From Patescibacteria group bacterium (lineage in GTDB: Bacteria > Patescibacteriota > Microgenomatia > UBA1406 > GWC2-37-13): a stretch of 42,521 nucleotides of DNA. Every line of letters begins with the position of its first letter. Position 1 is the first letter of the stretch. A program made the position numbers and the translations under genes. The notes beneath the pieces were generated by a model. That model did no database searches and was not told where the DNA came from. It saw only the letters and a list, made by a program, of their open reading frames with translations. The stretch lies in contig JBBTSP010000001.1 of the NCBI GenBank assembly GCA_038064655.1, positions 1 through 42,521 of the forward strand, written 5' to 3'. Below are positions 2-24,242 of this stretch, one piece after another.

Positions 2-244
2 ATCGAAAAACCGGTATTGATCGATTGGGTTAACGGAGGTTATATGGTTTTTGATAAGCGAGTATTTAATTATTTTAAAATTGGTGAGACCGAACATCCG
101 GCTTTAAAAAGATTGTCAAATAACAAACAGTTATCTGCCAGTAAGCACGATGGGTTTTGGTTTTGCATGGATACCTATAAAGAAGTGGAAGATTTAAATA
201 AAATTTGGAAGACGGGCAAGGCGCCGTGGAAGATATGGAAATAA
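2..244 (+). CDS. rfbF: Glucose-1-phosphate cytidylyltransferase, 3' part (truncated by window edge)
   Basis: Frame is open from base 2 (IEKPVLIDWVNGGYMVF...). C-terminal HDGFWFCMDT and KAPWKIW motifs are typical of RfbF/DdhA. Overlaps the rfbG start. Confidence 0.9.
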   Translation: MEKPVLIDWVNGGYMVFDKRVFNYFKIGETEHPALKRLSNNKQLSASKHDGFWFCMDTYKEVEDLNKIWKTGKAPWKIWK

Positions 245-1185
245 AAAATAAAAACATCTTAGTTACCGGTGGAGCGGGTTTTGTTGGCGGACATTTGGTC
301 GAAGAATTAATTAAACTAAAAGCCAATGTAATTGTTGTTGATATCAATCTTGATAAACAGTCTTATCTATTTACAGAAAATCTTCATAAAAAATCCAAAG
401 TTATTAACCTGGACATCTGCAATTATAAAAAAATATCAGCGTTAATTAAAAAATATAAAATTGAATTTATTTTTCATTTGGCCGCCCAGGCTTTGGTTGA
501 GGAGGGTTATAAAAATCCAAAATATACTTTAGAAAATAATATCGTCAGTACAATCAACATTCTTGAGGCAGTGCGAATTAATCCACAAATCAAAGGGTTA
601 ATCGTTGCATCATCAGACAAAGCTTATGGAAAACTGAACAAAACCAAATATACCGAAGACTTCCCCCTCTCGGGTAACCATCCTTATGATACTTCAAAAT
701 CGGTCACAGATCTAATCAGTACGACTTATTTCAAAACCTATAAAATCCCGGTCGTTGTTACCCGATTTGGAAATATTTACGGCGAAGGCGATCTAAATTT
801 CTCCAGAATTATTCCGGGGATTATGAAATCTATAATTCAGAATTCAGAATTGAGAATTAGAAGCAATGGCAAGTATGTGAGGGATTATCTATATGTCAAG
901 GATGTCGTAAACGGCTATTTATTGTTAGCTGAAAATATTGAAAAAGTTAGGGGTGAGGCTTTTAATTTCGGATCAGATGAGACGCTAACCGTTTTGGATT
1001 TAATAAAATTAACTGGAAAAATTTTAAATAAGAAAATAAAATTTAAAATTTTAAATATGGCCTATAACGAAATCCCCTACCAGTCGCTTGATTATTCAAA
1101 GATAAAAAAAACTTTGGGTTGGAAACCAAAAGAAAGCATCAAATCAACAGCGAAGAAAATATTTGGGTGGTATAAATATAAATAA
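235..1185 (+). CDS. rfbG: CDP-glucose 4,6-dehydratase-like extended SDR
   Basis: TGGAGFVG Rossmann motif, HLAAQALV, SSDKAYG, YDTSK (YxxxK), TRFGNIYGEGD. Directly follows rfbF. ATG at 235 preferred over the non-ATG start at 205. Confidence 0.85.
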   Translation: MEIKNKNILVTGGAGFVGGHLVEELIKLKANVIVVDINLDKQSYLFTENLHKKSKVINLDICNYKKISALIKKYKIEFIFHLAAQALVEEGYKNPKYTLENNIVSTINILEAVRINPQIKGLIVASSDKAYGKLNKTKYTEDFPLSGNHPYDTSKSVTDLISTTYFKTYKIPVVVTRFGNIYGEGDLNFSRIIPGIMKSIIQNSELRIRSNGKYVRDYLYVKDVVNGYLLLAENIEKVRGEAFNFGSDETLTVLDLIKLTGKILNKKIKFKILNMAYNEIPYQSLDYSKIKKTLGWKPKESIKSTAKKIFGWYKYK

Positions 1186-1212
1186 GAAGGATGGAATAAA
1201 ATTTATTAATTC

Positions 1213-2454
1213 CTATAGTTTCCAAAACGGAATAAAATTCACTTTTGTTTTACCAAATGTTTTTTGTTCATTTAATGTCAGATTTACAACAATAGCTTCT
1301 TCTGGATCATATTTATTCAAAAATACAGATAATGATTTTTCAATTTTCGGTGATTTAAGTGCAGAATATTTTACTTCGATGGGTGTTATTTTAGCACCCT
1401 CATCAATAATGAAATCAACTTCCCTACCAGTAGTCGTTCTCCAAAACTTTATGCGAGCATTGCTCCACCGATTGCGCTCTAAAAGGATATTCGTGATAAA
1501 ATTTTGAAACGCAAAACTATAATCTTTCTCCTGAAGATTGCCAAAAACACCTAATAATGAATTACGTAATCCAAGATCATTAAAATATACGATGGGTGAT
1601 TTTACGATTTCTTTATAATCATTCTTAAAATATGGCGTAATTAGATTAACCGTAAAGGTTTTTTTTGCGTACCAAAGATATTTTTTCAATGTTGGAAAGC
1701 TAATATGAGAATCCCTGCAAAGATTGGCATATGAGATTATTTGTCCTGTTTGCGCTGCCATTAATCTAAGTAAAAGTTCAAAAGATTCAACTCGATCAAC
1801 TTTCAAAAAATATGCAATATCTTTTTCTGCATAGCTTCGGAAGATTTCATTAATAATTTTTTTCTTTTCCTCTTGTTCCAAGGACAATATTACTCGAGGA
1901 TATCCACCAAAATTTAGATATTCTTTGAGCAGTCTTAAAGATAATTCTTGATTGATATGAAAAAAATCAGTTAAACGATCAGTATATTTATAATCTGTTT
2001 TGAAGTCAGAAAATTCAGTAAAAGTTATGGGACTCATCTCAAACAGTCTTTTTCGTCCAGCAAGCGATTCATGAATCTTTTCCTTAAGTTCAAGACTTCC
2101 GGACCCTGAAACTATAAGTTTGTATGGAGTATTCGAATCATATATTCCCTTTAAGAATATTCCTGCGTCCGTTTTACGTTGGATTTCATCTATAAAAACA
2201 TAGCCTTTTTTATCGCCAAATTCTAGACGCAGACGATCTAAAAGAATTGCCTGAGAAGTAAAAAAACGAACGTCTGCCTCAACGTCCAAATTTAAAAATA
2301 TGGCTTTTTCACCTGATTGAAGTACTTGGTTATACAGGTTAGTCATAAGAGTAGTTTTCCCAACCTGACGTGCGCCAACAATCATTGTTATTTCTTTTTT
2401 TGAAAGATGTGTTTTTATATCTTTTGATATTGTTCGATTTATTATATTGCTCAT
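1213..2454 (-). CDS. AAA+ ATPase (AAA_14) with DUF4143 / PD-(D/E)xK-like C-terminus
   Basis: Walker A GARQVGKT, Walker B FIDEIQ, SGS, LAGR, GGYP, YFNDLGLRN, C-terminal EVDFII...PIEVK. Confidence 0.9.
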   Translation of the reverse strand: MSNIINRTISKDIKTHLSKKEITMIVGARQVGKTTLMTNLYNQVLQSGEKAIFLNLDVEADVRFFTSQAILLDRLRLEFGDKKGYVFIDEIQRKTDAGIFLKGIYDSNTPYKLIVSGSGSLELKEKIHESLAGRKRLFEMSPITFTEFSDFKTDYKYTDRLTDFFHINQELSLRLLKEYLNFGGYPRVILSLEQEEKKKIINEIFRSYAEKDIAYFLKVDRVESFELLLRLMAAQTGQIISYANLCRDSHISFPTLKKYLWYAKKTFTVNLITPYFKNDYKEIVKSPIVYFNDLGLRNSLLGVFGNLQEKDYSFAFQNFITNILLERNRWSNARIKFWRTTTGREVDFIIDEGAKITPIEVKYSALKSPKIEKSLSVFLNKYDPEEAIVVNLTLNEQKTFGKTKVNFIPFWKL

Positions 2455-2484
2455 AATGTTAGATAATCATTAAACTACACTTTA

Positions 2485-2512
2485 ATTATAAACGGTTTAT
2501 TATGAAAGTCAA
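2485..2512 (-). promoter_or_regulatory. Sigma70-type promoter of the AAA+ gene with overlapping palindrome
   Basis: Minus strand TTGACT (2512-2507), 16-nt spacer, TATAAT (2490-2485). Inverted repeat ATAAAC-G-GTTTAT at 2488-2500. Confidence 0.6.
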
Positions 2513-2515
2513 ATT

Positions 2516-2598
2516 GAATTAATTTACGAATTAATTTGCGAGCATAACCCGAGAATATGTGGAATGCAATTGCTTTTTTTGCCGAGAATATGCGGGAT
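2516..2598. repeat. Short intergenic direct repeats
   Basis: GAATTAATTT(A/G)C twice in tandem (2516-2539). CCGAGAATATG(T/C)GG(A/G)AT twice (2549-2565, 2582-2598; 15/17 identical). Confidence 0.75.
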
Positions 2599-2612
2599 AG
2601 ATCAATAAATTA

Positions 2613-2648
2613 AAATCAACCACAGAAAGAATATTGGATTGGTATAAA
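2613..2648 (+). pseudogene. Orphan second copy of the rfbG 3' end
   Basis: Translates KSTTERILDWYK versus rfbG tail KSTAKKIFGWYK. 27/36 nt match to 1141-1176 without gaps. Confidence 0.55.
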
Positions 2649-2652
2649 AAAA

Positions 2653-3786
2653 TTATTTTGTTTTTTTCTTTTTTACCTTATTTACTATTTTGATGGGTGT
2701 CATATCGATTCCCCTTTGATATATTGATTTTTTAAGCTCTTCGTTATAAGCATAAGGACTGTCAATCATATCAATAAAAATTGGCTCATCTTTTTTAACA
2801 GATTTGATAAGTAATTCCCCATCCATCAGTTCACGACATGAAATTTGACCTTTCAAAAGAGGTACGGCCAAATATACATCTTCATCGCTTAATTTGTGAT
2901 TTACAGGTAAATCTTTTTTTACGTAAACACCTCTAATAAGTTGATCTAAATAAGCAATTTCTTTTTTTGGAGGGACTCTTTTATTATTTCCTGAGTTTCC
3001 GCACATTTCTCGAGCTTTGTTAAATGCTTTAAACCAAATATCAATCTGTTCTGGAAGCGAACAATAGGGCGATACTTCTTTGTCTGAAGTTTTGATATCT
3101 ATATGTCTTTCAAAAGTTCGAGCGCCTTTAGCATAAGCAACCAACATGGAAGAAGACCAATCGTGGTATTCATGAGTAGAGAAACCGATAACATGACCCG
3201 GATATCTTTCTTTTAAAAAGTCTATTTGATTTAACTCAAGTTCATTATCTTCCGAAGGATATAATGAGACGCAGTGATTAATAGCAAAGGGAATATTTCT
3301 ATTTTCAAAAAATTTAACCAGATCATCCATATCCTTTAATGAAGATCCTCCGGTTGATGCTATGACTGGTTTTTTGGTTTTAGCAATTTTTTCAATAAGA
3401 ATCCAATCATTAATATCGGAACTGGCTAATTTTATGATCTCAATTCCAAGTTCTGTGCAAAGATCAACCGACCTTTCGTCAAAGGGAGTAGCCATAGGGA
3501 TACAACCATTTTTTTTAATCGAGTTAATCATAATTTCATAATCATCATCTGACATTTGAGTGGATAAAGTTTTTTTTATATACCTCACATCGGTTCTATT
3601 TTTATATTTTTTATGAATGAAATTATTTACATCCCTGAATTGAAGTTTGATTGCGGCCCGGACGCTATTGAATCGAACTATTTTTGAAAAATCCCCTATT
3701 ATTTTTAATCCCCTATTTAAATCACCCCAGTGATTATTAGCTAATTCTAAAACGAATAGGTCATCAAAAATTGTTTTATTGTTCAT
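2653..3786 (-). CDS. NeuB-family PEP-dependent ulosonic acid synthase (divergent) with C-terminal SAF-like domain
   Basis: ELANNHWGD, IKLQ, ATPFD, KLASSD, STGG, HCVSLYP, GFSTH and FERH match the NeuB motif order, with non-canonical residues (usual SDH, EKH). Confidence 0.85.
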   Translation of the reverse strand: MNNKTIFDDLFVLELANNHWGDLNRGLKIIGDFSKIVRFNSVRAAIKLQFRDVNNFIHKKYKNRTDVRYIKKTLSTQMSDDDYEIMINSIKKNGCIPMATPFDERSVDLCTELGIEIIKLASSDINDWILIEKIAKTKKPVIASTGGSSLKDMDDLVKFFENRNIPFAINHCVSLYPSEDNELELNQIDFLKERYPGHVIGFSTHEYHDWSSSMLVAYAKGARTFERHIDIKTSDKEVSPYCSLPEQIDIWFKAFNKAREMCGNSGNNKRVPPKKEIAYLDQLIRGVYVKKDLPVNHKLSDEDVYLAVPLLKGQISCRELMDGELLIKSVKKDEPIFIDMIDSPYAYNEELKKSIYQRGIDMTPIKIVNKVKKKKTK

Positions 3787-3857
3787 ATATAAATATTTGA
3801 TAAATTTATAGGATAATTTTTATCACAATATTTTTATAATGTCAACAGATTTAGATT

Positions 3858-4736
3858 TTACTGAAGCGATTTAATAATAAAATTATGAATTGATTCAACT
3901 TTTAAATTGGTAAAAGTAAAGGGAAGATGACTATCGATTAATATTCCTCGGTCGTTACCTTCAGGCATATTTCCAAAAACAGCCACTTGTTCATCTTTTA
4001 AATTCAATTTTTTAATAATCGTTTTTAGCGCATAAAGTTTTGGATCAATTTTAAATGAGCGGCTGATTTGTAAAAATACATCATCCCCTTTTACGACTGA
4101 AAATTTATTGTCTAAATTTTGACTTATTTTATCTTTAAATAAATTAATAATTTTTTTATGGCTTTTTATATTATTAGGTAAAATAAAGGCAACTTTCGCT
4201 TCTTCCGAAAAGCAAATTCCTTTATACAATTTATTTTCTTCAATAAAATTATTAGGAATCAATTTTAACCAATTTTTTTTCAAAAATGATTTATGAATCT
4301 TTATTCCTAAATCATTTAATTCTGACGAAGTTATTTTTAAATCTAAATAAATTTTTTTACCTAATTTCATAATTATTTTAGCCTCTTCAAAGGTAAGGGC
4401 ATTATCATAAATTTTGAATAATCCTTTATTTGAATATTGATATAATATTGACCCATTTCCACCACCAATAAATATTGGTTTTATATTTTGATTTTTTTTA
4501 TAAAATTTTTCAAAATTTTTAATATGCAAGTCAAAAAATGATGAGCAACGGGCAGATAATATTAAACAAAATCTTTTTTTTAACAAAACCTTTTTAATTA
4601 ATAAAAATGCTTTTTGATGATTGAATTTTTTGTCTCCTATATCATAAATAGTTCCATCATAGTCAAAAACATAAAGCTTGATTTTATTTTTTATTTTTTT
4701 AGCTATTTTAGATGTATCAACTAATTTTATTTTCAT
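3858..4736 (-). CDS. HAD-superfamily hydrolase (IIB-like), probable phosphatase
   Basis: Motif I FDYDGT, motif II LSAR, motif III Lys (DPK), motif IV variant FGNMPEGND. Confidence 0.7.
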   Translation of the reverse strand: MKIKLVDTSKIAKKIKNKIKLYVFDYDGTIYDIGDKKFNHQKAFLLIKKVLLKKRFCLILSARCSSFFDLHIKNFEKFYKKNQNIKPIFIGGGNGSILYQYSNKGLFKIYDNALTFEEAKIIMKLGKKIYLDLKITSSELNDLGIKIHKSFLKKNWLKLIPNNFIEENKLYKGICFSEEAKVAFILPNNIKSHKKIINLFKDKISQNLDNKFSVVKGDDVFLQISRSFKIDPKLYALKTIIKKLNLKDEQVAVFGNMPEGNDRGILIDSHLPFTFTNLKVESIHNFIIKSLQ

Positions 4737-4777
4737 AGAATATGAATTGATACTGGTATTATAGTATAATTCTACAT

Positions 4778-6586
4778 ATGCAATCAGATATTGTTAAAAT
4801 CTCCGATTATGTTATTGATTATTTAGTCTCCCTTGGCATTAAAAATATATTCCTCATTTCTGGCGGCGGATGTATTCATTTAATTGATTCGGTTGGAAAA
4901 AATAAAAAAATAAAATTCATTTGCAATCACCACGAACAAGCCTCTGCGATTGCCGCCGAAGCTTATTCGCGTGTGACCGAGAAAATAAGCGCTTGTTTGG
5001 TGACAACTGGTCCGGGAAGTACAAATACTCTAACGGGATTAATCGGGGCCTGGCTCGATTCAATTCCAATGATTTTTATATCCGGTCAAGTAAAAAGGGA
5101 AACAATCGCCGATTATTCTAAATTACGTCAGATAGGAGATCAGGAAATAAACATTATTGATATGGTAAAACCGGTGACAAAGTATGCTGTGACTATTTTC
5201 AAGGAAGAGGAAATATCCTATCACATGGAAAAGGCTGTGTACTTGGCAACTCATGGCAGGCCAGGACCTGTTTGGATTAATATCCCGCTTGATATTCAAG
5301 GAGCAAAAATTCAAAAATCTTTACTAAAACATTTCAGTCAAAAAGAAATTGAAAAAACTATCATCAACCAAAAGGAACTAAAAAAAGAAGTTGAATTTAT
5401 CATTGAAAAAATTAAAAAAGCAAAACGCCCCTTACTTTTTGTAGGAAACGGGGTAAGATTGTCCGGAGCCCAAAAAGAACTTTTAAATTTAATTTCTTTG
5501 CTGAAGATCCCGGTTGTCACCGGTTTTGCTGGTTTTGATATGATCTCTTCCTCAAATCCTTATTTTGCTGGTCGACCGGGAACAATCGGTCAACGATCCG
5601 GAAATTTTGCCGTCCAAAATTCAGACCTGTTACTGGTAATTGGTTCTAAATTAAATATCAGGATGATTGGATATGATTTTAAATCTTTTGCCAGAGGCGC
5701 ATACAAGATAATGGCAGATATAGATAAGGAAGAAATGAGTAAGCCAACTCTTTCGATTGATAAAAAAATACTGTCTGATGCAAAAGATTTTATAAATGAA
5801 ATGATTATTCAATTAAAAAATTACCCAATCAGATTATCAATAGAAAATTGGATAACTAAAACTAAATATTGGAAAAAAAAATATCCAACAGTTTTGCCAC
5901 AGTATTGGCAAGAAAAAAAAGTTAATCCTTATTGTTTCATTGATACTTTGTCAAAATATCTAAACAAAAATGATGTAATAGCCGTATCAAATGCCACAGC
6001 GGCAATATGTACTTATCAAGCGATTCGTTTTCCGCAGGGCTTAAGAATAATAAATAATTCAGGATGTGCCGCGATGGGTTATGGACTTCCGGCCGCAATA
6101 GGCGCAAGCGTTGCCAACAAAAAAGGTAGAACAATCTGCCTTGAAGGTGATGGAAGTATTCAAATGAATGTTCAAGAATTTCAAACGATAGTTCATAACA
6201 AATTACCACTTAAAATATTTGTTTATAATAATAAGGGTTATGTCTCAATACGATTAACACAAAACGGATTGTTTGATGGAAGGTTAGTTGCCTCAAGCGA
6301 GGGCAGTGGGGTAAGTTGTCCCGACGTTATCAAAATAGCCAAAGCTTATGGAATTCATACAGAAAGGATTGTCAGTCATAAAGGTATGGATCAGATTGTT
6401 AAAAAAGTTTTGTCATATAAAGGTCCAGTCGTATGCGAAATAGTTGTTTCTCCGAATATGCAGTTTATGCCGAAGTCGGCCAGTATGCAGTTAAAAGATG
6501 GATCATTTGTTTCTCGTCCGCTTGAAGACATGGCCCCTTTCTTATCGAGAGAAGAATTAAAAGATAATATGTATATTTCACTATGA
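4778..6586 (+). CDS. ThDP-dependent enzyme 1 (acetolactate synthase-like, YerE-type sugar-branching carboligase)
   Basis: HHEQ catalytic Glu, TTGPGSTN, WLDSIP, RPGPVW, GDGS...NNKGY ThDP motif, RPLEDMAPFL tail. Sugar-cluster context and no small regulatory subunit. Confidence 0.85.
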   Translation: MQSDIVKISDYVIDYLVSLGIKNIFLISGGGCIHLIDSVGKNKKIKFICNHHEQASAIAAEAYSRVTEKISACLVTTGPGSTNTLTGLIGAWLDSIPMIFISGQVKRETIADYSKLRQIGDQEINIIDMVKPVTKYAVTIFKEEEISYHMEKAVYLATHGRPGPVWINIPLDIQGAKIQKSLLKHFSQKEIEKTIINQKELKKEVEFIIEKIKKAKRPLLFVGNGVRLSGAQKELLNLISLLKIPVVTGFAGFDMISSSNPYFAGRPGTIGQRSGNFAVQNSDLLLVIGSKLNIRMIGYDFKSFARGAYKIMADIDKEEMSKPTLSIDKKILSDAKDFINEMIIQLKNYPIRLSIENWITKTKYWKKKYPTVLPQYWQEKKVNPYCFIDTLSKYLNKNDVIAVSNATAAICTYQAIRFPQGLRIINNSGCAAMGYGLPAAIGASVANKKGRTICLEGDGSIQMNVQEFQTIVHNKLPLKIFVYNNKGYVSIRLTQNGLFDGRLVASSEGSGVSCPDVIKIAKAYGIHTERIVSHKGMDQIVKKVLSYKGPVVCEIVVSPNMQFMPKSASMQLKDGSFVSRPLEDMAPFLSREELKDNMYISL

Positions 6587-7449
6587 ACAAAATAAAAAAA
6601 ACAGTTTTCATTACCGGAGCGGGAGGGTTTATTGGAAAAAATCTTACAGAGCAGTTAAGTAAAAAATATAATTTATTAACTCCTGGTCATAAAGATTTGG
6701 ATCTATTGGATGAAAAAGCGGTTAATGATTTTTTTAAGAAAAATAAAATTGACGTCGTTATTAATTGCGCGGTCATCGGAGGAAGCCGAAAAGAAGAACA
6801 TGTTGATTCTTCCCTATTAGGAAACTTAAGAATTTTTTTTAATCTTTTAAAAAACAAAAATAAATACAAAAAAATGATTCATTTTGGGTCAGGAGCGGAA
6901 TATGACAAAAGCAAACCCATTATTCAAGTTAAAGAAACCGATCTGGGCAATACAATCCCACAGGATGAATACGGTTTTTTTAAATACATCTGTTCAAAAT
7001 ACATCGAGAAAGAAAAAAATATTGTTTGCATTAGAATCTTTGGATTATTTGGCAAATATGAGGACTATCGTTACAGGTTTATTTCAAATGCGATTGTCAA
7101 TAATTCAAGCGGGCTTCCAATAACCATGAACCAAAACGTATTTTTTGACTATGTTTATATAAATGATTTTATTAGGATCGTTGATCACTTTATAAATCAT
7201 AAAGCTAAATATAAATTTTATAATTCAGGGACAGGAAATAAGATAGATATATTAACAATTGCTAAAAAAATAAATTTAATTTCTGATAAAAAATCAAAAA
7301 TAATAATAAAAAATAAGGGATGGAATAATGAATATACTTGTGATAATAAAAGATTAAAAAATGAATTGAAAAAATTTAAATTTACTTCTTTTGACGAATC
7401 TCTTAAGGAATTATATAGATGGTATAAAGAAATATGGAAAAGAAATTAG
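6583..7449 (+). CDS. NAD-dependent epimerase/dehydratase/reductase (extended SDR)
   Basis: TGAGGFIG, GSGAEY, YGFFK (YxxxK). ATGA overlap with ThDP enzyme 1. Confidence 0.85.
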   Translation: MNKIKKTVFITGAGGFIGKNLTEQLSKKYNLLTPGHKDLDLLDEKAVNDFFKKNKIDVVINCAVIGGSRKEEHVDSSLLGNLRIFFNLLKNKNKYKKMIHFGSGAEYDKSKPIIQVKETDLGNTIPQDEYGFFKYICSKYIEKEKNIVCIRIFGLFGKYEDYRYRFISNAIVNNSSGLPITMNQNVFFDYVYINDFIRIVDHFINHKAKYKFYNSGTGNKIDILTIAKKINLISDKKSKIIIKNKGWNNEYTCDNKRLKNELKKFKFTSFDESLKELYRWYKEIWKRN

Positions 7450-8552
7450 GCGATTTATTATCAAAAACTGCTAATCACTACAAAGAATTAATATTAAAAA
7501 ATAATCCGAAATTTAATTTTAAAAAACCTGTTGTCTTATTCGGCGCTGCCAAACTATCACCTTATTTTATTAAATATTTTGAAAGCAAAAGAACAAAAAT
7601 TCTGTCTTTAACAGATAATGACAAAAGTAAAATTGGAAAAAAATTATTAGGATTAACGATTATTAGTAAAAAAAATTTACTTAAAAAATTTGGTAAAAAT
7701 ATACAGATAGTCGTCGCATCAGTCCACTACGACGAAATAATTAAAGAGCTTAAAAAAATGGGATTTAATAATGTGTTTAATCCAATGTTTTTTTTCACAT
7801 TAGATCACAAGGATTTTAATTTATTGACTTGGAGGAACAACATTGATTTAATCTTTAAAAATAAGAAAAAAATAAAATCGGCGTTTGCATTGTTTAAAGA
7901 TGAAAAGTCAAAAAAGATATATATAGAAATACTCAGATTTAGATTAGCATTTGATCAATCAATTTTCAGCAAGATTAAAGATGATAAAACAGAGTATTTT
8001 GATGAAAAAATAATTAAATTATCCCCAAAAGAAATATTTCTCGACGGCGGAGCCTATGATGGAGATACTGTCAAAATGTTTATTGAAAAATCTAAAAATA
8101 TTTTTAATAAAATATATGCTTTTGAGCCAGATGATAGTAATTATATTCAACTAAGTAAATATATAAACAAACTTTCTGATAAACGAATAATCAGTTATAA
8201 GATCGGATTAGGTGAAAAAAAAGAAAAATTATATTTTACAAATGAGGGAAATCTTCAATCTAAAATTACAAGCAAAAGTAAAACATTAATAAAAATATTG
8301 CCGATAGATTTTTTGAAAGATATTATTTTTACATATATAAAGTTAGATATAGAGGGATTTGAGAAGCAGGCATTGTTGGGCGCAAAAAAAATGATAAGTA
8401 AATTCAAACCAAAATTAGCAGTTTGTTTATATCATAATATTGAGGATTTATGGGATGTTCCTTGCTTAATAAATACGATTAACAAAAATTACAAATTTTA
8501 TATACGTCATTATACAAATTTTTTATTTGATACAATTTGCTATGCTGTCTAA
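7434..8552 (+). CDS. FkbM-family O-methyltransferase
   Basis: FLDGGAYDGD, AFEPD, IKLDIEGFE, KPKLAVCLYH. N-terminal Rossmann-like extension. Confidence 0.85.
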   Translation: MEKKLGDLLSKTANHYKELILKNNPKFNFKKPVVLFGAAKLSPYFIKYFESKRTKILSLTDNDKSKIGKKLLGLTIISKKNLLKKFGKNIQIVVASVHYDEIIKELKKMGFNNVFNPMFFFTLDHKDFNLLTWRNNIDLIFKNKKKIKSAFALFKDEKSKKIYIEILRFRLAFDQSIFSKIKDDKTEYFDEKIIKLSPKEIFLDGGAYDGDTVKMFIEKSKNIFNKIYAFEPDDSNYIQLSKYINKLSDKRIISYKIGLGEKKEKLYFTNEGNLQSKITSKSKTLIKILPIDFLKDIIFTYIKLDIEGFEKQALLGAKKMISKFKPKLAVCLYHNIEDLWDVPCLINTINKNYKFYIRHYTNFLFDTICYAV

Positions 8553-8557
8553 CATCT

Positions 8558-9628: not shown

Positions 9629-9629
9629 T

Positions 9630-10565: not shown

Positions 10566-10573
10566 TTGTTTTT

Positions 10574-12352
10574 TTATGGCCGATTGACTTTTTTAAATTC
10601 ATTTCGATCTAAGAATGGAAACATATCTTCATACGGTTTAGCAACTAAAGTTCCATCAGGTCGTTTTTCTGATGCTATTCTTGGAATTAAGAGTTGCCAG
10701 TCTGGTGTCATCACATCACAAATGACTGGACCTTTAAAATCAAGAACCTCTTTGACTTTTTTTTCAACTTCATCTATTGAACTGATTCTCACTCCCTTGA
10801 TTCCATAGGCCATGGCAATTTTAAGAGAATCTGGACACCAGACGCCATTTTTTGCGCTTTCTCCCATGAGTCTTCCTTCCATAAAATTTTTTTGGGTATG
10901 TCTGATCAACAAATAACCGTTATTATTAAAAATAAAAACTTTTATGGGAAGATTATTATATTTGATCGTGGCAAATTCTTGAATGTTGAATTGGAGACTA
11001 CCGTCCCCTGTTATCACAATCGTATTTGCCCGATTATTTGCCAAACAGGCGCCGATTCCGGCCGCCCAATAACCCATAGAAGAAATACCACCAGTAGTCA
11101 AAAAGCGCTGATTCTTTTTTATTTTCCATGTTTGGCAGGCGACATGAAAACAGGAACCCGTATCAACCAAAATCATATCTTTATCAGATGCAAGTTTGGA
11201 TAATTTTTCGGTAAAATAATAAGAATTAATCGGTTTTTCCTTTTTATATTCCGGCAAAACCACCTGATATTTATTTTTCCAAAAATTGCATCTTTTAATC
11301 CAGTTATTATAATTGGAAAACTTATACTTGGTTAATTGCTTTAATAATTCTTTTAAAAATAATTTGATATCGGAGTGGATTTTCAGGAAAATGTCAACTC
11401 CTGGTTTTTCGAGTTCCTCAATGTCAATATCGACAACAACTTTTTTAGCATTCTTACCAAATTCTTTTGAGTTATGACCAACTGTTGAAGTTGAAAGTCT
11501 TGAGCCAACGGCTAAGATAAAATCAGAGTTTTGAATGGCAAAATGAGCGGCTCTTTCCCCATAAGTGCCTGGTCGACCAACATATAATTTATTGTCACTA
11601 TCGATAAGATCAATTCCAAGTCTTGAGGTAATCACTGGCATTTGAAGTTTTTTGACAGTTTCATCAAATTCTTTGAAAGCATTTGCCAACCTGATTCCCT
11701 GGCCAACAAAAAGAATTGGACGTTTTGACCTTGATAGTATTTTTAATGTCTCTTTTACCTTTAAAGAAAGATTATTATCTTCATCACTGCTTTCTTCAGG
11801 GACAAATTCTTTTAAAAGTTTCTCAGGAACTTTCATTCTTTGAATATCGAGAGGAACTTCGATCCAAACCGGGCCCGGTCGGCCATTTAAAGCTAAATAA
11901 TAAGCTTTTTGCATATAATATTGTATTAAAGAAGGATCGTCGACGGTAACAAAATACTTTGTGACCTTTTCAACGATCGGCTTGATATTTATTCCCTGAA
12001 TTCCATATTGTCTAATCTTGGTTTTTTGCTGATACTGGACGTAAGATAAAGCAGACTGGCCGGAAATAACCATCATTGGAGCCGAATCAACCCAACCACC
12101 AACGACTCCATTCATGATGTTGATGGCGGCCGGTCCGGCAGTAACTAAAGTAACTCCTAATTTTCCAGTAATGCGACCATAAGCATCAGCTGACATTCCC
12201 AAAGCCTGTTCATGGTGACCACAAATATATTTCAATTTTTTGTTACGAAAAACCGCATCATTCAAAAACATAGCCTGACCACCGGTAATCATGAATACAG
12301 TATCAACCCCTTTTGAGGACAAAAATTTAAAGATATAGTCGCTGACAGTCAT
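10574..12352 (-). CDS. ThDP-dependent enzyme 2 (YerE/ErwE-type sugar-branching carboligase)
   Basis: HHEQ, TAGP, WVDS, RPGPVW, GDGS...NNNGY, KPYEDMFPFL. Last gene of the GT2-dmpF-dmpG unit. Confidence 0.85.
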   Translation of the reverse strand: MTVSDYIFKFLSSKGVDTVFMITGGQAMFLNDAVFRNKKLKYICGHHEQALGMSADAYGRITGKLGVTLVTAGPAAINIMNGVVGGWVDSAPMMVISGQSALSYVQYQQKTKIRQYGIQGINIKPIVEKVTKYFVTVDDPSLIQYYMQKAYYLALNGRPGPVWIEVPLDIQRMKVPEKLLKEFVPEESSDEDNNLSLKVKETLKILSRSKRPILFVGQGIRLANAFKEFDETVKKLQMPVITSRLGIDLIDSDNKLYVGRPGTYGERAAHFAIQNSDFILAVGSRLSTSTVGHNSKEFGKNAKKVVVDIDIEELEKPGVDIFLKIHSDIKLFLKELLKQLTKYKFSNYNNWIKRCNFWKNKYQVVLPEYKKEKPINSYYFTEKLSKLASDKDMILVDTGSCFHVACQTWKIKKNQRFLTTGGISSMGYWAAGIGACLANNRANTIVITGDGSLQFNIQEFATIKYNNLPIKVFIFNNNGYLLIRHTQKNFMEGRLMGESAKNGVWCPDSLKIAMAYGIKGVRISSIDEVEKKVKEVLDFKGPVICDVMTPDWQLLIPRIASEKRPDGTLVAKPYEDMFPFLDRNEFKKVNRP

Positions 12353-12353
12353 A

Positions 12354-13409
12354 TTATAATAATGATTCTATCTGATAATCTTCATTTTTAAACTCTTTTT
12401 TCTGTTTGAGAAAATTGGCCACATCGATAATAATATCTTCTTGTCCGCCGACGACCTTTCTTCTACCTAATTCTTTGAGAATATCTCGTACATCGACACC
12501 AAATTTGATAGCCGCTTTTTCCGCATGGGGAGCAAAGCCGGAAAAGACTCCGGCAAGACCACTGGTGAGAGTTATATAATTAATTTCAGGAGATTTTTTC
12601 ATTAATTTAGCAATAATATTTTCACTATTATCCATTAATTGATAAAGATCAAGTCCTGTTTTATAACCTATTTTTTCAAGAACAGCAACAATTACTTCAA
12701 GTTGGCAGTTTCCAGCCCCAGCTCCAAGTCCACGGGAACAGGCGTCGATAATCTTTGCTCCGGATTCAACCGCAATTAAAGAATTGGCAATGGCCATGCC
12801 CAAATTATTATGAGCGTGAAAACCAACCTCAACTTTCAAGCCCTTGACTAAAGTTGAAACTTTTTCGGTCACATCCTGAGGAAGATATGTTCCCGCTGAG
12901 TCCATCAACATTACCCCACTAGCTCCATATTCCTCCATCAGTTTTGCCTGGGCAAGAAGTTCCGACTCCGAAATCATATGAGACATCATTAAGACTCCAT
13001 AAGTTTTTATATTATTTTTTACAGCATATTGAATATGCTGACGAGTGATATTGGCTTCAGTACAGTGGCAGGCGACCATCATCACTTCAATCCCCGCTTT
13101 AATTGCCGGAGCAATATCATTTTTGATGGTTCCAAAACCAGGAATAAGAAAAGCACCGAGCTGGGTTTTTTTTAATTGTTTTTTGGCAGTTTTTAGCATT
13201 TCCTGATCTGACAATAATGAAATTCCCAGTTGAAGAGAAGAAGCGCCCAGTCCATTACCATGTCCAACGATAAGAATTTTTGTCCCAGCTAATTCAGCCC
13301 CCCTAGCATATTGAGTAATATCTTGAGCGGTAAGTTGGTGTTTCATGGCGTGGGATCCGTCACGAAGTGTTGAATCAACGATTAAAATTTCTTTATTATT
13401 ATTTTTCAT
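12354..13409 (-). CDS. dmpG: 4-hydroxy-2-oxovalerate aldolase (DmpG/MhpE)
   Basis: DSTLRDGSH, HGNGLG, HCTEA, GFHAHNNLG, GAGAGN, C-terminal VGGQEDIIIDVA communication domain. Confidence 0.92.
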   Translation of the reverse strand: MKNNNKEILIVDSTLRDGSHAMKHQLTAQDITQYARGAELAGTKILIVGHGNGLGASSLQLGISLLSDQEMLKTAKKQLKKTQLGAFLIPGFGTIKNDIAPAIKAGIEVMMVACHCTEANITRQHIQYAVKNNIKTYGVLMMSHMISESELLAQAKLMEEYGASGVMLMDSAGTYLPQDVTEKVSTLVKGLKVEVGFHAHNNLGMAIANSLIAVESGAKIIDACSRGLGAGAGNCQLEVIVAVLEKIGYKTGLDLYQLMDNSENIIAKLMKKSPEINYITLTSGLAGVFSGFAPHAEKAAIKFGVDVRDILKELGRRKVVGGQEDIIIDVANFLKQKKEFKNEDYQIESLL

Positions 13410-14304: not shown

Positions 14305-14307
14305 TGT

Positions 14308-15243
14308 TTAAAAATTAACCTTATTTTTAATAATAAAAGATGGACGGGCTTTGACTTCATCATAAATACGGGCTAAATATTCGCTGATAATTCCAAGGAC
14401 AAAAAAAAGAATTCCAAATAAGCTCAAGGTTAGTATGATCATTGTTGCGGCTCCGGGTGCTTCTCGTCCATGGACGAGAAATAAATAAAGATAAAAAATA
14501 ATCATAAAAAATGAGACGACGGTAATTCCGATTCCAAGAAAAGTGACAAATCTTAAAGGTAAATAAGAGAAAGAAAAGATACCGTTGAGGGCGACCTTAA
14601 GAGCTGTTTTAAAATCAGCTTTTGATTCTCCGGCAAATCTGTTTGCCCGGTTAAATGAAATACCAATATGTTTGAAGCCGGTCCACATAATCAAGCCTCT
14701 TAAATATTTATTCTGTTCCCCCATTTGGTTGATTGTTTGATAAACCCTTTTATCAATTAATCGAAAGTCGCTGGCATTTTCAGGGAACATGTTTTTTGTA
14801 AATAAATTAATTATTTTATAAAATAAAACAGAGCTGACATTTCTAAAAAAACCGGCAGTTCTTTTTTTGACCTGGCCATAAACAATTTCATACCCGGCTT
14901 CCCATTTTTCGATAAACTTGGAAATAAGATCAATCGGCTCTTGAAGATCAGCCATCATGATAACGCAGGCGTCTCCTGTCACAAAATGCATACCGGCCGC
15001 AATGCCGCCGTCGCAACCAAAGTTTTTAGAAAGCTGAAGTATCTTTAATCGTCGATCTTTTCGGGAAAATTTTTGTAAGAGAACAAAAGAATTATCAACA
15101 GAGCCGTGTTCAACAAATACGACTTCAAAATCATAAGCGGGATTTTTATTCATAAAGTTTGTCAGTTGTTTAATTAATTCAGGGATTCCAAGAGATTCAT
15201 TATAAATCGGAATGACAACAGAGATAAGTTTTTTAGATTTCAT
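14308..15243 (-). CDS. GT2 polyprenyl-phosphate glycosyltransferase (GtrB-like)
   Basis: SVVIPIYNE, LSKNFG, ADLQEP, SDFRLID, two C-terminal TM helices, EVKARPSFII. Start 15243 chosen because the ATG at 15252 overlaps a TATAAT box. Confidence 0.88.
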   Translation of the reverse strand: MKSKKLISVVIPIYNESLGIPELIKQLTNFMNKNPAYDFEVVFVEHGSVDNSFVLLQKFSRKDRRLKILQLSKNFGCDGGIAAGMHFVTGDACVIMMADLQEPIDLISKFIEKWEAGYEIVYGQVKKRTAGFFRNVSSVLFYKIINLFTKNMFPENASDFRLIDKRVYQTINQMGEQNKYLRGLIMWTGFKHIGISFNRANRFAGESKADFKTALKVALNGIFSFSYLPLRFVTFLGIGITVVSFFMIIFYLYLFLVHGREAPGAATMIILTLSLFGILFFVLGIISEYLARIYDEVKARPSFIIKNKVNF

Positions 15244-15288
15244 TGTTCTCATTATACAATATCATTATTTTTTTGGTAAAATAATTTC

Positions 15289-16530
15289 ATGTTTATTCCC
15301 GGCAAGACCTACATACCAGTCTCAGGAAAAGTTTTTGATAAAGAAGAGATAAATAATGCCATTGAAGCGGCCAAAGACGGCTGGTGGACTGAAGGAAGAT
15401 GGGCTAAACAGTTTGAATCAGATTTTAAAAAATTTCTTGGTGTCAATTACGTTTCACTTGTTAATTCCGGTTCTTCAGCTAATTTAGTTGCATTGGCCTG
15501 TTTAACTTCAACAGTATTTGGCGAACGGCAATTAAAACCGGGTGATGAATATATTACTACATCAGTCGCTTTTCCAACGACTGTTAATCCCGGACTTCAA
15601 TATGGTTTAAAACCGATTTTTATTGATGCGGAACTTGATACTTTAAACATTGACGTTGATCAAATTGAGAAAGCGATTACAAAGAAGACGAAATTAATCA
15701 TGGTCGCTCATACTTTAGGTAAACCATATAACTTAAAAAAAATCATGAAATTGGCAAAAAAATATAATCTTTGGGTGATTGAAGATTGCTGTGATGCATT
15801 GGGTAGTAAATATAAAGGTAAGATGGTTGGCACTTGGGGAGATATAGCAACACATAGTTTTTACCCAGCGCACATAATCACGATGGGAGAGGGAGGCGCT
15901 GTGACAACCCAAAACCCATTAATTCATCGGTCAATTCGGCAGTTTCGCGATTGGGGTCGGGACTGTTGGTGTGATACGGGAAAAGATGACACCTGCAGAA
16001 AAAGATTTGGTTGGAAATTGGGAGAGCTACCTCAAGGTTATGATCATAAATATATCTATTCTCAGATTGGCTATAATTTAAAATCAACTGACTTTCAAGC
16101 CGCCATTGGCTGTGCCCAACTAAAAAAACTCCCCGATTTTATCAAAAAAAGACAAGAAAATTATAAAATTCTTTATAATTTTTTTAGTCAATATAAAAAA
16201 TATTTTATTTTGATGAAAGAGGATAAAAATGAGGAAGTGAGCTATTTTGGATTTCCGGCAATTGTTAAACCTCACTCCCCTTTTACCCGTAATCAACTGA
16301 CAGAATATCTGGAAAATAATAAAATCGGCACAAGAAATATTTTTTCCGGCAATCTCCTCCGTCATCCGGCTTACCTGAAATTAAAAAATAAATTTAAAAT
16401 CATCGGTAATCATAAAAATGCCGATTTAATTATGAACAATGCTTTTTGGTTGGGAGTTTGGCCGGGAATTAATGATGAAATGATAACGTATATTAAGGAA
16501 AGAATATTTAATTTTCTTCAAATTTATTAA
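15289..16530 (+). CDS. rfbH: CDP-4-keto-6-deoxyglucose 3-dehydrase (E1, RfbH/DdhC)
   Basis: NSGSSANL, FPTTVNP, EDCCDALGS, SFYPAH (His in place of the Schiff-base Lys), RDCWC...TC...YDHKY Fe-S ligand motif. Confidence 0.93.
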   Translation: MFIPGKTYIPVSGKVFDKEEINNAIEAAKDGWWTEGRWAKQFESDFKKFLGVNYVSLVNSGSSANLVALACLTSTVFGERQLKPGDEYITTSVAFPTTVNPGLQYGLKPIFIDAELDTLNIDVDQIEKAITKKTKLIMVAHTLGKPYNLKKIMKLAKKYNLWVIEDCCDALGSKYKGKMVGTWGDIATHSFYPAHIITMGEGGAVTTQNPLIHRSIRQFRDWGRDCWCDTGKDDTCRKRFGWKLGELPQGYDHKYIYSQIGYNLKSTDFQAAIGCAQLKKLPDFIKKRQENYKILYNFFSQYKKYFILMKEDKNEEVSYFGFPAIVKPHSPFTRNQLTEYLENNKIGTRNIFSGNLLRHPAYLKLKNKFKIIGNHKNADLIMNNAFWLGVWPGINDEMITYIKERIFNFLQIY

Positions 16531-17278: not shown

Positions 17279-17280
17279 AC

Positions 17281-17877: not shown

Positions 17878-17886
17878 ATACTATCA

Positions 17887-17915
17887 ATCTTAAAGAGTTT
17901 ATGCAATCTTGTCAA
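17887..17915 (-). promoter_or_regulatory. Sigma70-type promoter of the abiE operon
   Basis: Minus strand TTGACA (17915-17910), 17-nt spacer, TAAGAT (17892-17887), 9 nt before the ATG. Confidence 0.7.
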
Positions 17916-17982
17916 GAGCATTTTTATAATAAAATTCATTATGTTGATACGAGGTAAGAAAGTGTAGTAATATATACACTAT

Positions 17983-18174
17983 ATGGATACGAAGAAAATA
18001 ACAAATATTTATAAAGAAACATCGGCATTAGTTTGGAAGGAAGCGAATCTTTTTATGGCAAAATCCCTTATCGTTATTGTTCCTAATCACAAACAGATAG
18101 CCCACGGAACCCTTGAAAGTATATTAAAACAATCAGATATGAGTTATCTTGAATTTGAATCTTACTATAAATAA
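17983..18174 (+). pseudogene. hicB-N/hicA-C chimeric remnant
   Basis: C-terminal VIVPNHKQIAHGTLESILKQS is a HicA signature. N-terminal ALVWKEANLFMAK resembles HicB first strands. The HicA GSH catalytic motif is absent. Confidence 0.6.
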
Positions 18175-18292
18175 TGCCGACTTAATTATGAATAATGCTT
18201 TTTGGCTGGGAGTATATCCTGGAATTTCAAAAAATACGATTAAATATGTTAAAGAAAAAATAAAAGATTTTATCATGTCTCTCCATATATGA
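18173..18292 (+). pseudogene. Orphan second copy of the rfbH 3' end
   Basis: NADLIMNNAFWLGVYPGISKNTIKYVKEKIKDFIMSLHI* versus rfbH NADLIMNNAFWLGVWPGINDEMITYIKERIFNFLQIY*. 38/41 nt identical to 16417-16457. Its TGA overlaps the next ATG (ATGA). Confidence 0.9.
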
Positions 18293-19101
18293 AATCAGCT
18301 TTAATTGGATATACAGGGTTTGTTGGAAGCAATATAAATGACCAACATAAATTTACCGAACTTTATAATTCAAAAAATATTACCAAGATCAAAAATAAAA
18401 AATATGATTTGGTTGTTAGCGCAGGAATTCCTGGAACAAAATGGATAGCCAATAAATATCCCGTAAAAGACCTTGAAAATATAAAGAAATTTATAAATTC
18501 CATAAAAACTGTTCAAGCCAGAAAATTTGTTTTAATATCTACGGAAGACGTTTACGAAAATCCTTATAAAGTAAACGAAAAAACCAAAATTAATTCGGCC
18601 AATGTCCAACCTTATGGAAAAAACAGACTATTTTTAGAAAAAAAACTCAAAAATATATTCAAAAAATCATTGATAGTTATCAGACTGCCCGGTTTAATCG
18701 GAAAAAATTTAAAAAAAAACTTCATATATGATTTTATTCATGAAAGAAAATATTATTTAAGCAATAGTGAAAGTATGGTCCAGGTATATGATCTAAAAAA
18801 TATTTGGAAAGATTTAAAAAAAACAATCAAATATTCTTTACCCATTATCAATTTTGCGCCGGAACCGATTAGAGTTGCTGACATAGTTAAATATGTGTTT
18901 GGAATAAATTTTGTTAATAAAGACAAAAAACGTTTTTTAAATTATGATGTCTCATCCGTTTATGCCCATCACTACGGTAATAGCGATAAATACTTATATA
19001 ACAAAAAACGAGTTTTAAATAGTATAAAAAAATTTGTTTATCTAGAAAAACTCAAACTCGAAGGAAAACCTTTAAAGAAAATGAAAGATATTATTTATTA
19101 A
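18289..19101 (+). CDS. NAD(P)-dependent extended SDR (sugar reductase/epimerase)
   Basis: ALIGYTGFVG, ISTEDVY, PYGKNR (YxxxR variant), IRLPGLIG. Confidence 0.75.
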   Translation: MKSALIGYTGFVGSNINDQHKFTELYNSKNITKIKNKKYDLVVSAGIPGTKWIANKYPVKDLENIKKFINSIKTVQARKFVLISTEDVYENPYKVNEKTKINSANVQPYGKNRLFLEKKLKNIFKKSLIVIRLPGLIGKNLKKNFIYDFIHERKYYLSNSESMVQVYDLKNIWKDLKKTIKYSLPIINFAPEPIRVADIVKYVFGINFVNKDKKRFLNYDVSSVYAHHYGNSDKYLYNKKRVLNSIKKFVYLEKLKLEGKPLKKMKDIIY

Positions 19102-24241: not shown

Positions 24242-24242
24242 T

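What the first reader, a model, noticed from the sequence alone, without database searches (positions are those of the whole stretch)
235..19101. Twin-module C4-branched sugar pathway: one CDP-3,6-dideoxy-4-keto core, two ThDP enzymes, two donor supplies
Seen: rfbF/rfbG/rfbH, two divergent YerE-like ThDP genes, each grouped with a different 2-oxo-acid-forming enzyme and its own GtrB-like GT2, plus two SDRs. Established: YerE adds a decarboxylated 2-oxo acid to C4 of CDP-4-keto-3,6-dideoxyglucose and an SDR reduces the product (yersiniose); erwiniose and caryophyllose carry longer branches. Inference: this cell makes two different branched higher-carbon sugars from one intermediate and loads each onto a lipid carrier separately. 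I do not know of a described dual system of this kind.
Basis: partly seen in the sequence, partly recalled or inferred. Interest (0 to 1): 0.9.

Follow-up and report, generated by a model that had tools for sequence, protein, structure and literature searches.

The report
Stacked branched-sugar cassettes in CPR bacterium
Two intact gene cassettes sit between the genes of a CDP-deoxysugar pathway in a tiny uncultured bacterium and likely graft two different carbon side chains onto the same sugar: one matches the published erwiniose route, and the other likely uses a sialic-acid-synthase relative to supply a longer chain.

Summary
Largely confirmed. Between rfbF/rfbG and rfbH lie two cassettes, each with a YerE-like ThDP enzyme (44% identical; nearest solved relative JanthE; true AHAS is on another contig), its own keto-acid supply and its own GtrB-like GT2. 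Cassette B (ErwJ/ErwI/ThDP/GT2) is the published erwiniose type. Its aldolase carries F87/F289 (14 of 14 relatives), mirroring the engineered (R)-selective BphI. Cassette A (NeuB-family synthase, HAD, ThDP, SDR, two methyltransferases, GT2) likely grafts a PEP-derived 3-deoxy-ulosonate: this NeuB clade lies beside a YerE-like gene in 75 of 80 loci, with a CMP-transferase in 0 of 80, and swaps with HpcH aldolases within one ThDP clade. Corrections: the second SDR (18289) is not cassette B's reductase; twin clusters are common in kin (6 of 16 positive relatives), made by cassette stacking. No chemistry or expression was tested; two key 2024 papers were unavailable. This scan already reported the NeuB-donor and erwiniose cassettes separately on other DNA. 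New variant of a known kind.

The parts
2..244 (+). rfbF/ddhA (glucose-1-phosphate cytidylyltransferase), 3' end only; 5' part on contig C47
235..1185 (+). rfbG/ddhB-like CDP-glucose 4,6-dehydratase
   Evidence: best NCBIfam TIGR02622, 199 bits, below its cut-off of 278; follows rfbF in relatives
2653..3786 (-). Cassette A: NeuB-family PEP-dependent synthase ('NeuB-X' clade), likely donor supplier
   Evidence: PF03102; nearest solved 3G8R; neighbourhood survey
3858..4736 (-). Cassette A: HAD phosphatase
   Evidence: PF08282; DYDGT motif; same place in G002, G035, G017, G051
4778..6586 (+). Cassette A: YerE-like ThDP carboligase (ThDP-1)
   Evidence: 471 bits to JanthE 8RPH, 285 to 5AHK, at most 226 to AHAS; tree
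6583..7449 (+). SDR1, likely YerF/ErwF-type side-chain ketoreductase; the only conserved SDR for both cassettes
   Evidence: PF01370; GxxGxxG and YxxxK motifs; co-occurrence
7434..8552 (+). Cassette A: FkbM-type methyltransferase
   Evidence: PF05050
8558..9628 (+). Cassette A: class I SAM methyltransferase
   Evidence: PF13489; ATG at 8558
9630..10565 (+). Cassette A: GtrB/DPM-synthase-like GT2 (GT2a)
   Evidence: PF00535, NF047588 and NF007986 below cut-off; 2 predicted TM helices; clade
10574..12352 (-). Cassette B: ErwE-type YerE-like ThDP carboligase (ThDP-2)
   Evidence: 405 bits to JanthE vs at most 247 to AHAS; clade with adjacent aldolase in 12 of 12
12354..13409 (-). Cassette B: ErwI/DmpG-type 4-hydroxy-2-oxopentanoate aldolase with F87 and F289
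   Evidence: TIGR03217 over cut-off; residues
13399..14304 (-). Cassette B: ErwJ/DmpF-type acetylating acetaldehyde dehydrogenase
   Evidence: TIGR03215 over cut-off; Cys132 in the SCGGQAT motif
14308..15252 (-). Cassette B: GtrB/DPM-synthase-like GT2 (GT2b)
15289..16530 (+). rfbH/ddhC (E1, CDP-4-keto-6-deoxyglucose 3-dehydrase)
   Evidence: NF011936 over cut-off; 467 bits to 3BCX with the FYPAH, EDCCD, DCWC and YDHKY motifs kept

Best explanation
The locus holds one CDP-3,6-dideoxy-4-ketohexose core (rfbF, rfbG, rfbH) and two inserted cassettes that likely add two different acyl branches at C4 and likely load each product on a polyprenyl-phosphate carrier through its own GT2. Cassette B: ErwJ likely reduces acetyl-CoA to acetaldehyde, ErwI likely adds pyruvate to give (R)-4-hydroxy-2-oxopentanoate, and ThDP-2 likely decarboxylates it and transfers the C4 unit, giving the erwiniose skeleton (C10); the ketone is reduced by the shared SDR1 or left as it is. 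Cassette A: NeuB-X likely condenses PEP with an aldose phosphate to a 3-deoxy-ulosonate phosphate, most likely a C7 DAHP-like acid from a tetrose 4-phosphate (about 50% within this reading; C8 or C9 otherwise). The HAD likely removes the phosphate, ThDP-1 transfers the decarboxylated chain, SDR1 reduces it and the two methyltransferases O-methylate it, giving a caryophyllose-like C12 sugar with a terminal CH2OH. Shown here: gene content, motifs, clades and co-occurrence. Inferred: every reaction, the chain length, the order of phosphatase and ligase, and the lipid carrier.
For: (1) Not AHAS: both enzymes score far higher to JanthE than to AHAS; a true ilvB sits in an ilv operon on C44 at about 30% identity. 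(2) ThDP-2 clade: 12 of 12 members have the aldolase within 71 bases. Conversely, of the 8 other genomes among 400 with TIGR03217, all 8 have it beside a ThDP-2-type gene. This is the ErwE/I/J set of PMC9306805. (3) Aldolase F87 and F289 in 14 of 14, where three solved catabolic aldolases have Tyr at the second site; BphI L87W/Y290F is (4R)-specific (PMC3962088, passages) and ErwE takes the (R) acid. (4) NeuB-X: a YerE-like gene in 75 of 80 loci (56 of 57 with 5 kb on both sides), rfbH in 46, rfbF in 41, GtrB-like GT2 in 55, a HAD in 26, across several phyla; CMP-ulosonate transferase in 0 of 80, control 6 of 6; none over cut-off in the own genome. (5) In the 20-row ThDP-1 clade the donor slot holds NeuB-X or an HpcH-family aldolase, the enzyme type of caryophyllose clusters. 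Sister cassettes add an AroB-like enzyme (10 regions) or transaldolase (2), which points to a C7 7-phosphate. (6) Relatives place whole pseudaminate- or legionaminate-type gene sets beside a YerE-like gene with no PF02348 match in the genome (0 of 5). (7) GT2a and GT2b lie in separate well-supported clades that follow the cassettes; a GtrA-type flippase is on C20.
Against: No assay and no expression data. ErwE, YerE and MyGE sequences could not be placed in the tree, so ThDP-2 = ErwE rests on gene context. No dedicated SDR for cassette B. E3 (DdhD) was not found: no Fer2 match; only an FNR-like protein on C11. A HAD is seen in only 26 of 80 NeuB-X loci and an SDR1-type gene in 8 of 80 (a more distant SDR is present in many). 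The one-GT2-per-enzyme rule fails in several class-level regions: G545, G626, G671, G706 have fewer, G758 and G821 more, and about ten single-enzyme regions show none. No transaldolase was found in the own genome with one query. One of five further relatives (G035) has a weak over-cut-off PF02348 match (28.7 bits, partial; the best match in each Gram-negative genome scored 182-207). GT-C acceptor enzymes are not demonstrated.
Confidence: 0.7

Rival explanations
1. NeuB-X plus HAD make a free ulosonic acid (KDN-like) for direct display, and ThDP-1 simply uses pyruvate to make a yersiniose-type C2 branch.
For: A NeuB synthase with a HAD phosphatase is the known KDN-9-phosphate logic (recalled). 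JanthE, the nearest solved relative, accepts pyruvate (PMC12188165, passages). The genome is 90% complete, so a CMP-transferase could be missing from the assembly.
Against: No CMP-transferase in 80 of 80 NeuB-X loci, in the own genome, or in G002 and G017. The near-obligate link to a ThDP gene (75 of 80) and the exchange with HpcH aldolases would be unexplained.
Confidence: 0.1
2. The two ThDP enzymes cooperate on a single sugar (heteromer or sequential use), so there is one product and not two.
For: In this genus cassette B never stood alone (5 of 5 genomes carry a second YerE-like cassette) and there is only one conserved SDR.
Against: Cassette A stands alone in G035 (88% identical ThDP-1) and G017; ThDP-2-type cassettes stand alone in G817, G785, G531, G757. 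Cassette B pairs with different partners: NeuB-X (G000, G002), HpcH (G834), pseudaminate-type (G022, G033). C4 offers one ketone, and each cassette brings its own GT2.
Confidence: 0.07
3. Both cassettes are real, but only one is used at a time or one is a recent passenger; the locus is a turnover hotspot and not a working two-product pathway.
For: Displaced 3' ends of rfbG and rfbH and inserted AAA and AbiE genes show recent turnover. The cassettes are on opposite strands. No RNA evidence exists.
Against: All frames are intact with catalytic motifs, and the same pair is kept in G002 at 73-91% identity, which suggests long joint retention.
Confidence: 0.1
4. Both enzymes are acetohydroxyacid synthases or catabolic enzymes (DmpFG for aromatic degradation).
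For: Best NCBIfam labels are acetolactate synthase, all below cut-off, and 4-hydroxy-2-oxovalerate aldolase.
Against: A true AHAS exists in an ilv operon; both group away from it; the aldolase lacks the Tyr of catabolic enzymes and occurs only beside ThDP-2-type genes in the class sample.
Confidence: 0.03

Closest known systems
Erwiniose cluster of Pectobacterium atrosepticum (ErwE, ErwF, ErwI, ErwJ; Steitz et al. 2022, PMC9306805)
   Same: Cassette B has the same three-gene donor and ligase set (BphJ/BphI-like pair plus ThDP enzyme) inside a CDP-3,6-dideoxy-4-ketohexose cluster, with a glycosyltransferase.
   Different: No ErwF in the cassette; no E3 found; host is a likely Patescibacteria cell, not an LPS producer; a second cassette shares the core. 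ErwE itself was not aligned.
Caryophyllose (M. marinum MMAR_2331/2332/2333), gastriose (MygI/MyGE/MygF) and R. palustris clusters (PMC9306805)
   Same: Polyhydroxylated 2-oxo acid as donor, ThDP ligase, reductase, methyltransferase (R. palustris) and a DPM-synthase-like GT2 (PMC4403928, passages). The ThDP-1 clade includes cassettes with HpcH-family aldolases.
   Different: The donor is likely made by a PEP-dependent NeuB-family synthase and a HAD phosphatase, not by a pyruvate aldolase; two methyltransferases; no AroB-like gene, so probably no terminal methyl.
Yersiniose A pathway (YerE/YerF) and JanthE (PDB 8RPH)
   Same: YerE-like decarboxylase-family ThDP enzymes; JanthE is the best solved match to both.
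   Different: YerE needs no donor-supply genes (pyruvate); JanthE has a CDG motif and an unknown natural substrate, whereas both window enzymes keep GDG.
Sialic/nonulosonic acid synthases (NeuB, PseI, LegI; KDN-9-P synthase plus HAD)
   Same: Fold and core residues E14, K47, Q49, K119, S122, S144, S203, H205, E226, H228 align with NeuB E25, K53, Q55, K129, S132, S154, S213, H215, E234, H236 (their PEP and metal roles are recalled).
   Different: Below TIGR03569 and TIGR03586 cut-offs; NeuB R314 aligns with V308 and D247 with S239; no NeuA, NeuC or amino-sugar genes; nearest structure is the uncharacterised 3G8R.

Membership tests
YerE-like ThDP carboligases (both enzymes) | Three-domain decarboxylase-family ThDP enzyme with GDG motif | tested here: met
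   PF02776, PF00205, PF02775; GDG in both sequences
YerE-like ThDP carboligases (both enzymes) | Closer to YerE-like enzymes than to AHAS | tested here: met
   JanthE 471 and 405 bits vs AHAS at most 226 and 247; own AHAS outside
YerE-like ThDP carboligases (both enzymes) | Encoded with CDP-3,6-dideoxy-4-ketohexose genes | tested here: met
   rfbF, rfbG, rfbH flank both cassettes
YerE-like ThDP carboligases (both enzymes) | Transfers an acyl anion to the CDP-4-ketosugar | not testable with these tools
   needs an assay
Erwiniose pathway (cassette B) | BphI/BphJ-like aldolase-dehydrogenase pair next to the ThDP gene | tested here: met
   TIGR03217 and TIGR03215 over cut-off, adjacent
Erwiniose pathway (cassette B) | (R)-4-hydroxy-2-oxopentanoate supply | tested here: inconclusive
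   F87/F289 resembles the (R)-selective BphI double variant, but F87 is not W or N and nothing was assayed
Erwiniose pathway (cassette B) | ErwF-type reductase | tested here: inconclusive
   None inside the cassette; SDR1 of cassette A could serve; SDR2 is not conserved
Erwiniose pathway (cassette B) | ThDP-2 orthologous to ErwE (WP_011093010) | not tested
   no tool returned the ErwE sequence
Caryophyllose/gastriose pathway (cassette A) | HpcH/citrate-lyase-family pyruvate aldolase as donor supplier | tested here: not met
   NeuB-family gene in its place; no HpcH hit in the genome with one query
Caryophyllose/gastriose pathway (cassette A) | ThDP enzyme, reductase and DPM-like GT2 together | tested here: met
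Nonulosonic (sialic) acid pathway | NeuB-family synthase with PEP and metal site | tested here: met
   PF03102; residues aligned to 1XUU
Nonulosonic (sialic) acid pathway | CMP-ulosonate synthetase (NeuA/KdsB) | tested here: not met
   none over cut-off in the 90% complete genome; 0 of 80 loci
Acetohydroxyacid synthase | Score over the TIGR00118 cut-off and ilv context | tested here: not met
   376 and 369 bits vs 538; ilv operon elsewhere
CDP-3,6-dideoxyhexose core | E3 reductase DdhD (2Fe-2S ferredoxin plus flavin domain) | tested here: not met
   no PF00111 match; a stand-alone PF00970 protein on C11

The most novel reading that the evidence does not exclude
The rfbFG-rfbH interval of these CPR bacteria is a plug-in array in which each cassette adds one keto-acid supply, one ThDP branching enzyme and one lipid-loading GT2, so that one cell displays two or three different C10-C14 branched sugars; NeuB-X is a DAHP-synthase-like enzyme on a sialic-acid-synthase scaffold, whole pseudaminate and legionaminate pathways are rerouted as acyl donors without CMP activation, and the ErwI clade is a natural (R)-selective version of an aldolase that had to be engineered in BphI.
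Probability: 0.4. Interest if true: 0.72.

Novelty: new variant of a known kind. Interest (0 to 1): 0.52.

Why it matters
It warns that NeuB genes, even whole pseudaminate or legionaminate gene sets, do not prove sialic-acid-like surface sugars when the CMP-transferase is missing. It shows that a 0.94 Mb genome spends about 15 genes on two exotic surface sugars, a candidate means of host contact or phage evasion (inference). The pair is a clean in vitro test of donor selectivity between two 44% identical enzymes, and the F87/F289 aldolase is a ready candidate for a natural (R)-selective biocatalyst.

Tried and rejected
Plasmid collection: no match for NeuB-X at 1e-40 or ThDP-2 at 1e-100. SDR2 as cassette B's reductase: rejected. 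Invertible-segment idea for the alternating strands: no telling inverted repeats; the best pair lies inside the two ThDP paralogs, and the orientations are the same in G002. Promoter scan: 105 sites vs 100 expected, uninformative. GT-C identity of the five membrane proteins at 22400-32781: no Pfam family over cut-off, single-sequence model unusable (pLDDT 40), no PDB match; GT87/PMT_2 hits came from other members of the alignment, several of them only 12-20% identical to the first; the Atlas gives DUF6311. The NeuB-X model and fold search confirm the family but do not name the substrate. No RNA holder listed; no read-level check of contiguity was obtained. The Atlas did not answer for SDR2. 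Trees leave out 60 or so of the NeuB-X-locus rows (76 of 125 rows, 33) and use quick methods. Krug 2024, Lanza 2024, Sarkar 2011 and van der Woude 2012 were not held. The claim in earlier notes that the M. marinum locus has an AroB-like gene could not be confirmed (no 'dehydroquinate' in PMC4703794 or PMC5706390).


Full report
Setting. The window is contig C1 of a 937,584-base, 90% complete genome. Named homologs point to Roizmanbacteria-like Patescibacteria (inference). The first 19 kb hold a CDP-deoxysugar cluster; glycosyltransferases, five large membrane proteins and an ABC exporter pair follow.

Observation. rfbF is split between C47 and C1. RfbH aligns with E1 (3BCX, 467 bits) and keeps the FYPAH histidine and the cysteine motifs (their roles are recalled). 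Layout: rfbF rfbG, [AAA gene], cassette A (NeuB-X and HAD on the minus strand; ThDP-1, SDR1, FkbM, MT, GT2a on the plus strand), cassette B (GT2b, ErwJ, ErwI, ThDP-2 on the minus strand), rfbH, [AbiE pair], an rfbH 3' remnant, SDR2. G002 has the same order and orientations; G035 has cassette A with nothing but a short ORF where cassette B would be. Cassette B is therefore a unit that is gained or lost.

Not AHAS. Both ThDP enzymes match JanthE (8RPH; 471 and 405 bits) far better than AHAS (at most 226 and 247). JanthE is described as YerE-like with unknown natural substrates (PMC12188165, passages; PMC12247030, parts 1-2 of 5). A true AHAS lies on C44 with ilvA, ilvD and ilvC-like genes (names read from the sequences), 30% identical to either. 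Both trees place the two enzymes in separate, well-supported clades away from it (FastTree, 76 of 125 rows, IQ-TREE quick, 33 rows).

Cassette B. Steitz et al. 2022 (PMC9306805; main text parts 1-2 of 3, supplement part 3 of 6 and one search; figures not seen) describe ErwJ, ErwI, ErwE and ErwF: acetaldehyde plus pyruvate gives (R)-4-hydroxy-2-oxopentanoate, which ErwE transfers and ErwF reduces; ErwE rejects pyruvate. The window has the first three types adjacent. All 12 members of the ThDP-2 clade have the aldolase within 71 bases. In 400 class genomes the aldolase family was found in 8, each beside a ThDP-2-type gene. The aldolase keeps R16, D17, H20, H198 and H200 and has F87 and F289 in 14 of 14 copies. 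Three solved catabolic aldolases have Tyr at the second site, and two of them Leu at the first. In BphI, Y290F abolishes (S) control and L87W/Y290F or L87N/Y290F inverts it to (R) (PMC3962088, passages). This fits an (R) supply; it is a sequence inference. The cassette has no reductase. SDR2 was found in 1 of 42 other genus genomes, broken, and not in G002, G022, G033 or G834. In the genus, cassette B came with a second, SDR1-bearing cassette in 5 of 5 genomes, so SDR1 is likely shared; otherwise the ketone stays. In other families an SDR1-type gene follows ThDP-2 directly in G817, G785 and G545, and an aminotransferase plus acetyltransferase does so in G531, G757 and G758.

Cassette A. The NeuB-family protein scores far below the NeuB and PseI cut-offs; its nearest structure is the uncharacterised 3G8R. 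It keeps the core residues of NeuB but has V308 at R314 and S239 at D247, which suggests another sugar substrate. The best 80 of 586 confirmed stretches from the genome collection span Patescibacteria, Acidobacteria, Rhodocyclales, Planctomycetes, Bacteroidota and others. By tblastn, 75 of 80 hold a YerE-like gene (56 of 57 with 5 kb on both sides), 55 a GtrB-like GT2, 46 rfbH, 41 rfbF, 38 rfbG, 31 and 25 the two methyltransferase types, 26 a HAD of either of two unrelated types, 8 an SDR1-type gene. A profile of four CMP-transferases found 0 of 80, against 6 of 6 controls and 3 hits in other CPR regions. These loci are the top hits and many are kin, so the counts are not independent. PF02348 is not over cut-off in the own genome, absent in 5 of 5 relatives, and weakly over cut-off in 1 of 5 more. 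Within the 20-row ThDP-1 clade the donor slot holds NeuB-X in 11, an HpcH-family aldolase in 4 and neither in 5, most of these on short contigs. HpcH-family aldolases supply the donor in caryophyllose-type clusters. Ten regions add an AroB-like enzyme, usually with a second short SDR, and two add transaldolase and PEP carboxylase. AroB-type enzymes act on C7 2-ulose 7-phosphates (established knowledge), hence the C7 guess. The reading that this enzyme makes a methyl end came from earlier scan notes and is untested. The window lacks it, so its chain would end in CH2OH after the HAD. The genome has a split transketolase that could give E4P and no DAHP synthase I match.

Wider pattern. G022 carries PseB, PseC, PseG/H and PseI-like genes, G033 a partial set of the same kind, and G049 and G832 legionaminate-type genes, next to a YerE-like gene, without a CMP-transferase over cut-off in the genome. 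Other cassettes pair the ThDP gene with aspartate-pathway genes, an aminotransferase, a DJ-1 protein or a split transketolase. Twin clusters: 16 of 60 close relatives have a match (one of them AHAS-like) and 6 have two or more; 2 of 5 further genus genomes have two; in a class-wide draw 31 of 400 have a match and 2 have two. G834 pairs cassette B with an HpcH/AroB-like cassette. The twin is thus one combination from a cassette pool, frequent in this order and rarer in the class.

Lipid loading. GT2a and GT2b have two predicted C-terminal helices and match PgfS and ArnC models below cut-off. They fall in separate clades: all 13 ThDP-1-clade cassettes in the GT2 tree use the GT2a clade; 10 of 12 ThDP-2 cassettes have a GT2b-clade gene, one has another clade and one none on its short contig. 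Both clades also serve other cassettes. In 8 of 8 multi-enzyme regions of the order the number of such GT2s equals the number of ThDP or transketolase enzymes; it fails in G545, G626, G671, G706, G758, G821 and about ten single-enzyme regions. DPM-like GT2s are proposed, not proven, to load polyprenol carriers in mycobacterial LOS clusters (PMC4403928, passages). A GtrA-type protein is on C20. The downstream membrane proteins are plausible GT-C acceptors, but this was not shown.

Gaps. No E3 was found; an FNR-like protein on C11 might serve (inference). No expression data. Reference enzymes are missing from the trees.

Novelty. Cassette B is a new member of a published kind. I found no paper on a NeuB-type donor or on double clusters in searches (listings and abstracts; 10.64898/2026.04.20.719630 passages had nothing on it). 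Krug 2024 and Lanza 2024 and their supplements, which survey over 200 YerE-like clusters, were not available and may cover both. Earlier notes of this scan report NeuB-donor and erwiniose cassettes singly on other DNA; I had reached the NeuB reading before opening them, and they are not independent support. None of the notes listed describes this pairing or the aldolase residues. Verdict: real, a new variant of a known kind, interest 0.52.

Noticed in passing
window:2613-2648 and window:18158-18277: Diverged copies of the 3' ends of rfbG and rfbH lie downstream of the intact genes, each behind an inserted gene set (AAA_14/DUF4143 ATPase 1213-2454; AbiEii/AbiEi pair 16508-17877). G002 and G008 show the same scar behind rfbG with a small two-gene insert. 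It looks like integration that replaces the gene end.
   Followed up: partly
L035:15111-19761 (G022), L037:2477-9201 (G049), L040, L221: Pseudaminate- and legionaminate-type gene sets beside a YerE-like gene in genomes without a CMP-ulosonate synthetase; predicted amino-substituted C14 branched sugars.
   Followed up: partly
L197, L199, L201, L202, L203, L198, L209, L219: Sister cassettes add an AroB-like enzyme (near TIGR04425) with a short SDR, and sometimes an FGGY kinase, transaldolase, PEP carboxylase or DHDPS-like aldolase.
   Followed up: partly
L204, L206, L032, L221: A YerE-like clade sits with aspartate kinase, homoserine dehydrogenase, Asd and an aminotransferase: possibly 4-hydroxy-2-oxobutanoate (from homoserine) as donor.
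   Followed up: no
L188, L190, L186, L192, L193: A YerE-like clade sits with a second cytidylyltransferase-like gene, a DJ-1/PfpI protein, an unknown 252-aa protein and an Ldh_2 dehydrogenase; donor unknown.
   Followed up: no
L042:3235-5894, L033, L041: Split transketolase genes with their own GtrB-like GT2 occupy the same cassette slot between rfbG and rfbH.
   Followed up: no
window:4737-4777 and window:15253-15288: Divergent genes are only 41 and 36 bases apart, with TATAAT-like hexamers on both strands a few bases before the starts: possible back-to-back leaderless promoters; the scan as a whole was at chance level.
   Followed up: no
window:22400-32781: Five paralogous 600-760 aa multi-pass membrane proteins in two subfamilies with no Pfam family; the Atlas places the first near DUF6311.
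   Followed up: partly
G000:C44:545-8141: An ilv operon (aminotransferase, ilvB, ilvA, ilvD, RidA-like, ilvC) in a likely Patescibacteria genome, a group that usually lacks amino-acid synthesis (recalled).
   Followed up: no
window:18289-19101: Atypical SDR (no YxxxK at the usual place, YxxxR instead) left behind the old rfbH end; probably a relic of an earlier cluster with the two GT2s at 19091-21278.
   Followed up: partly
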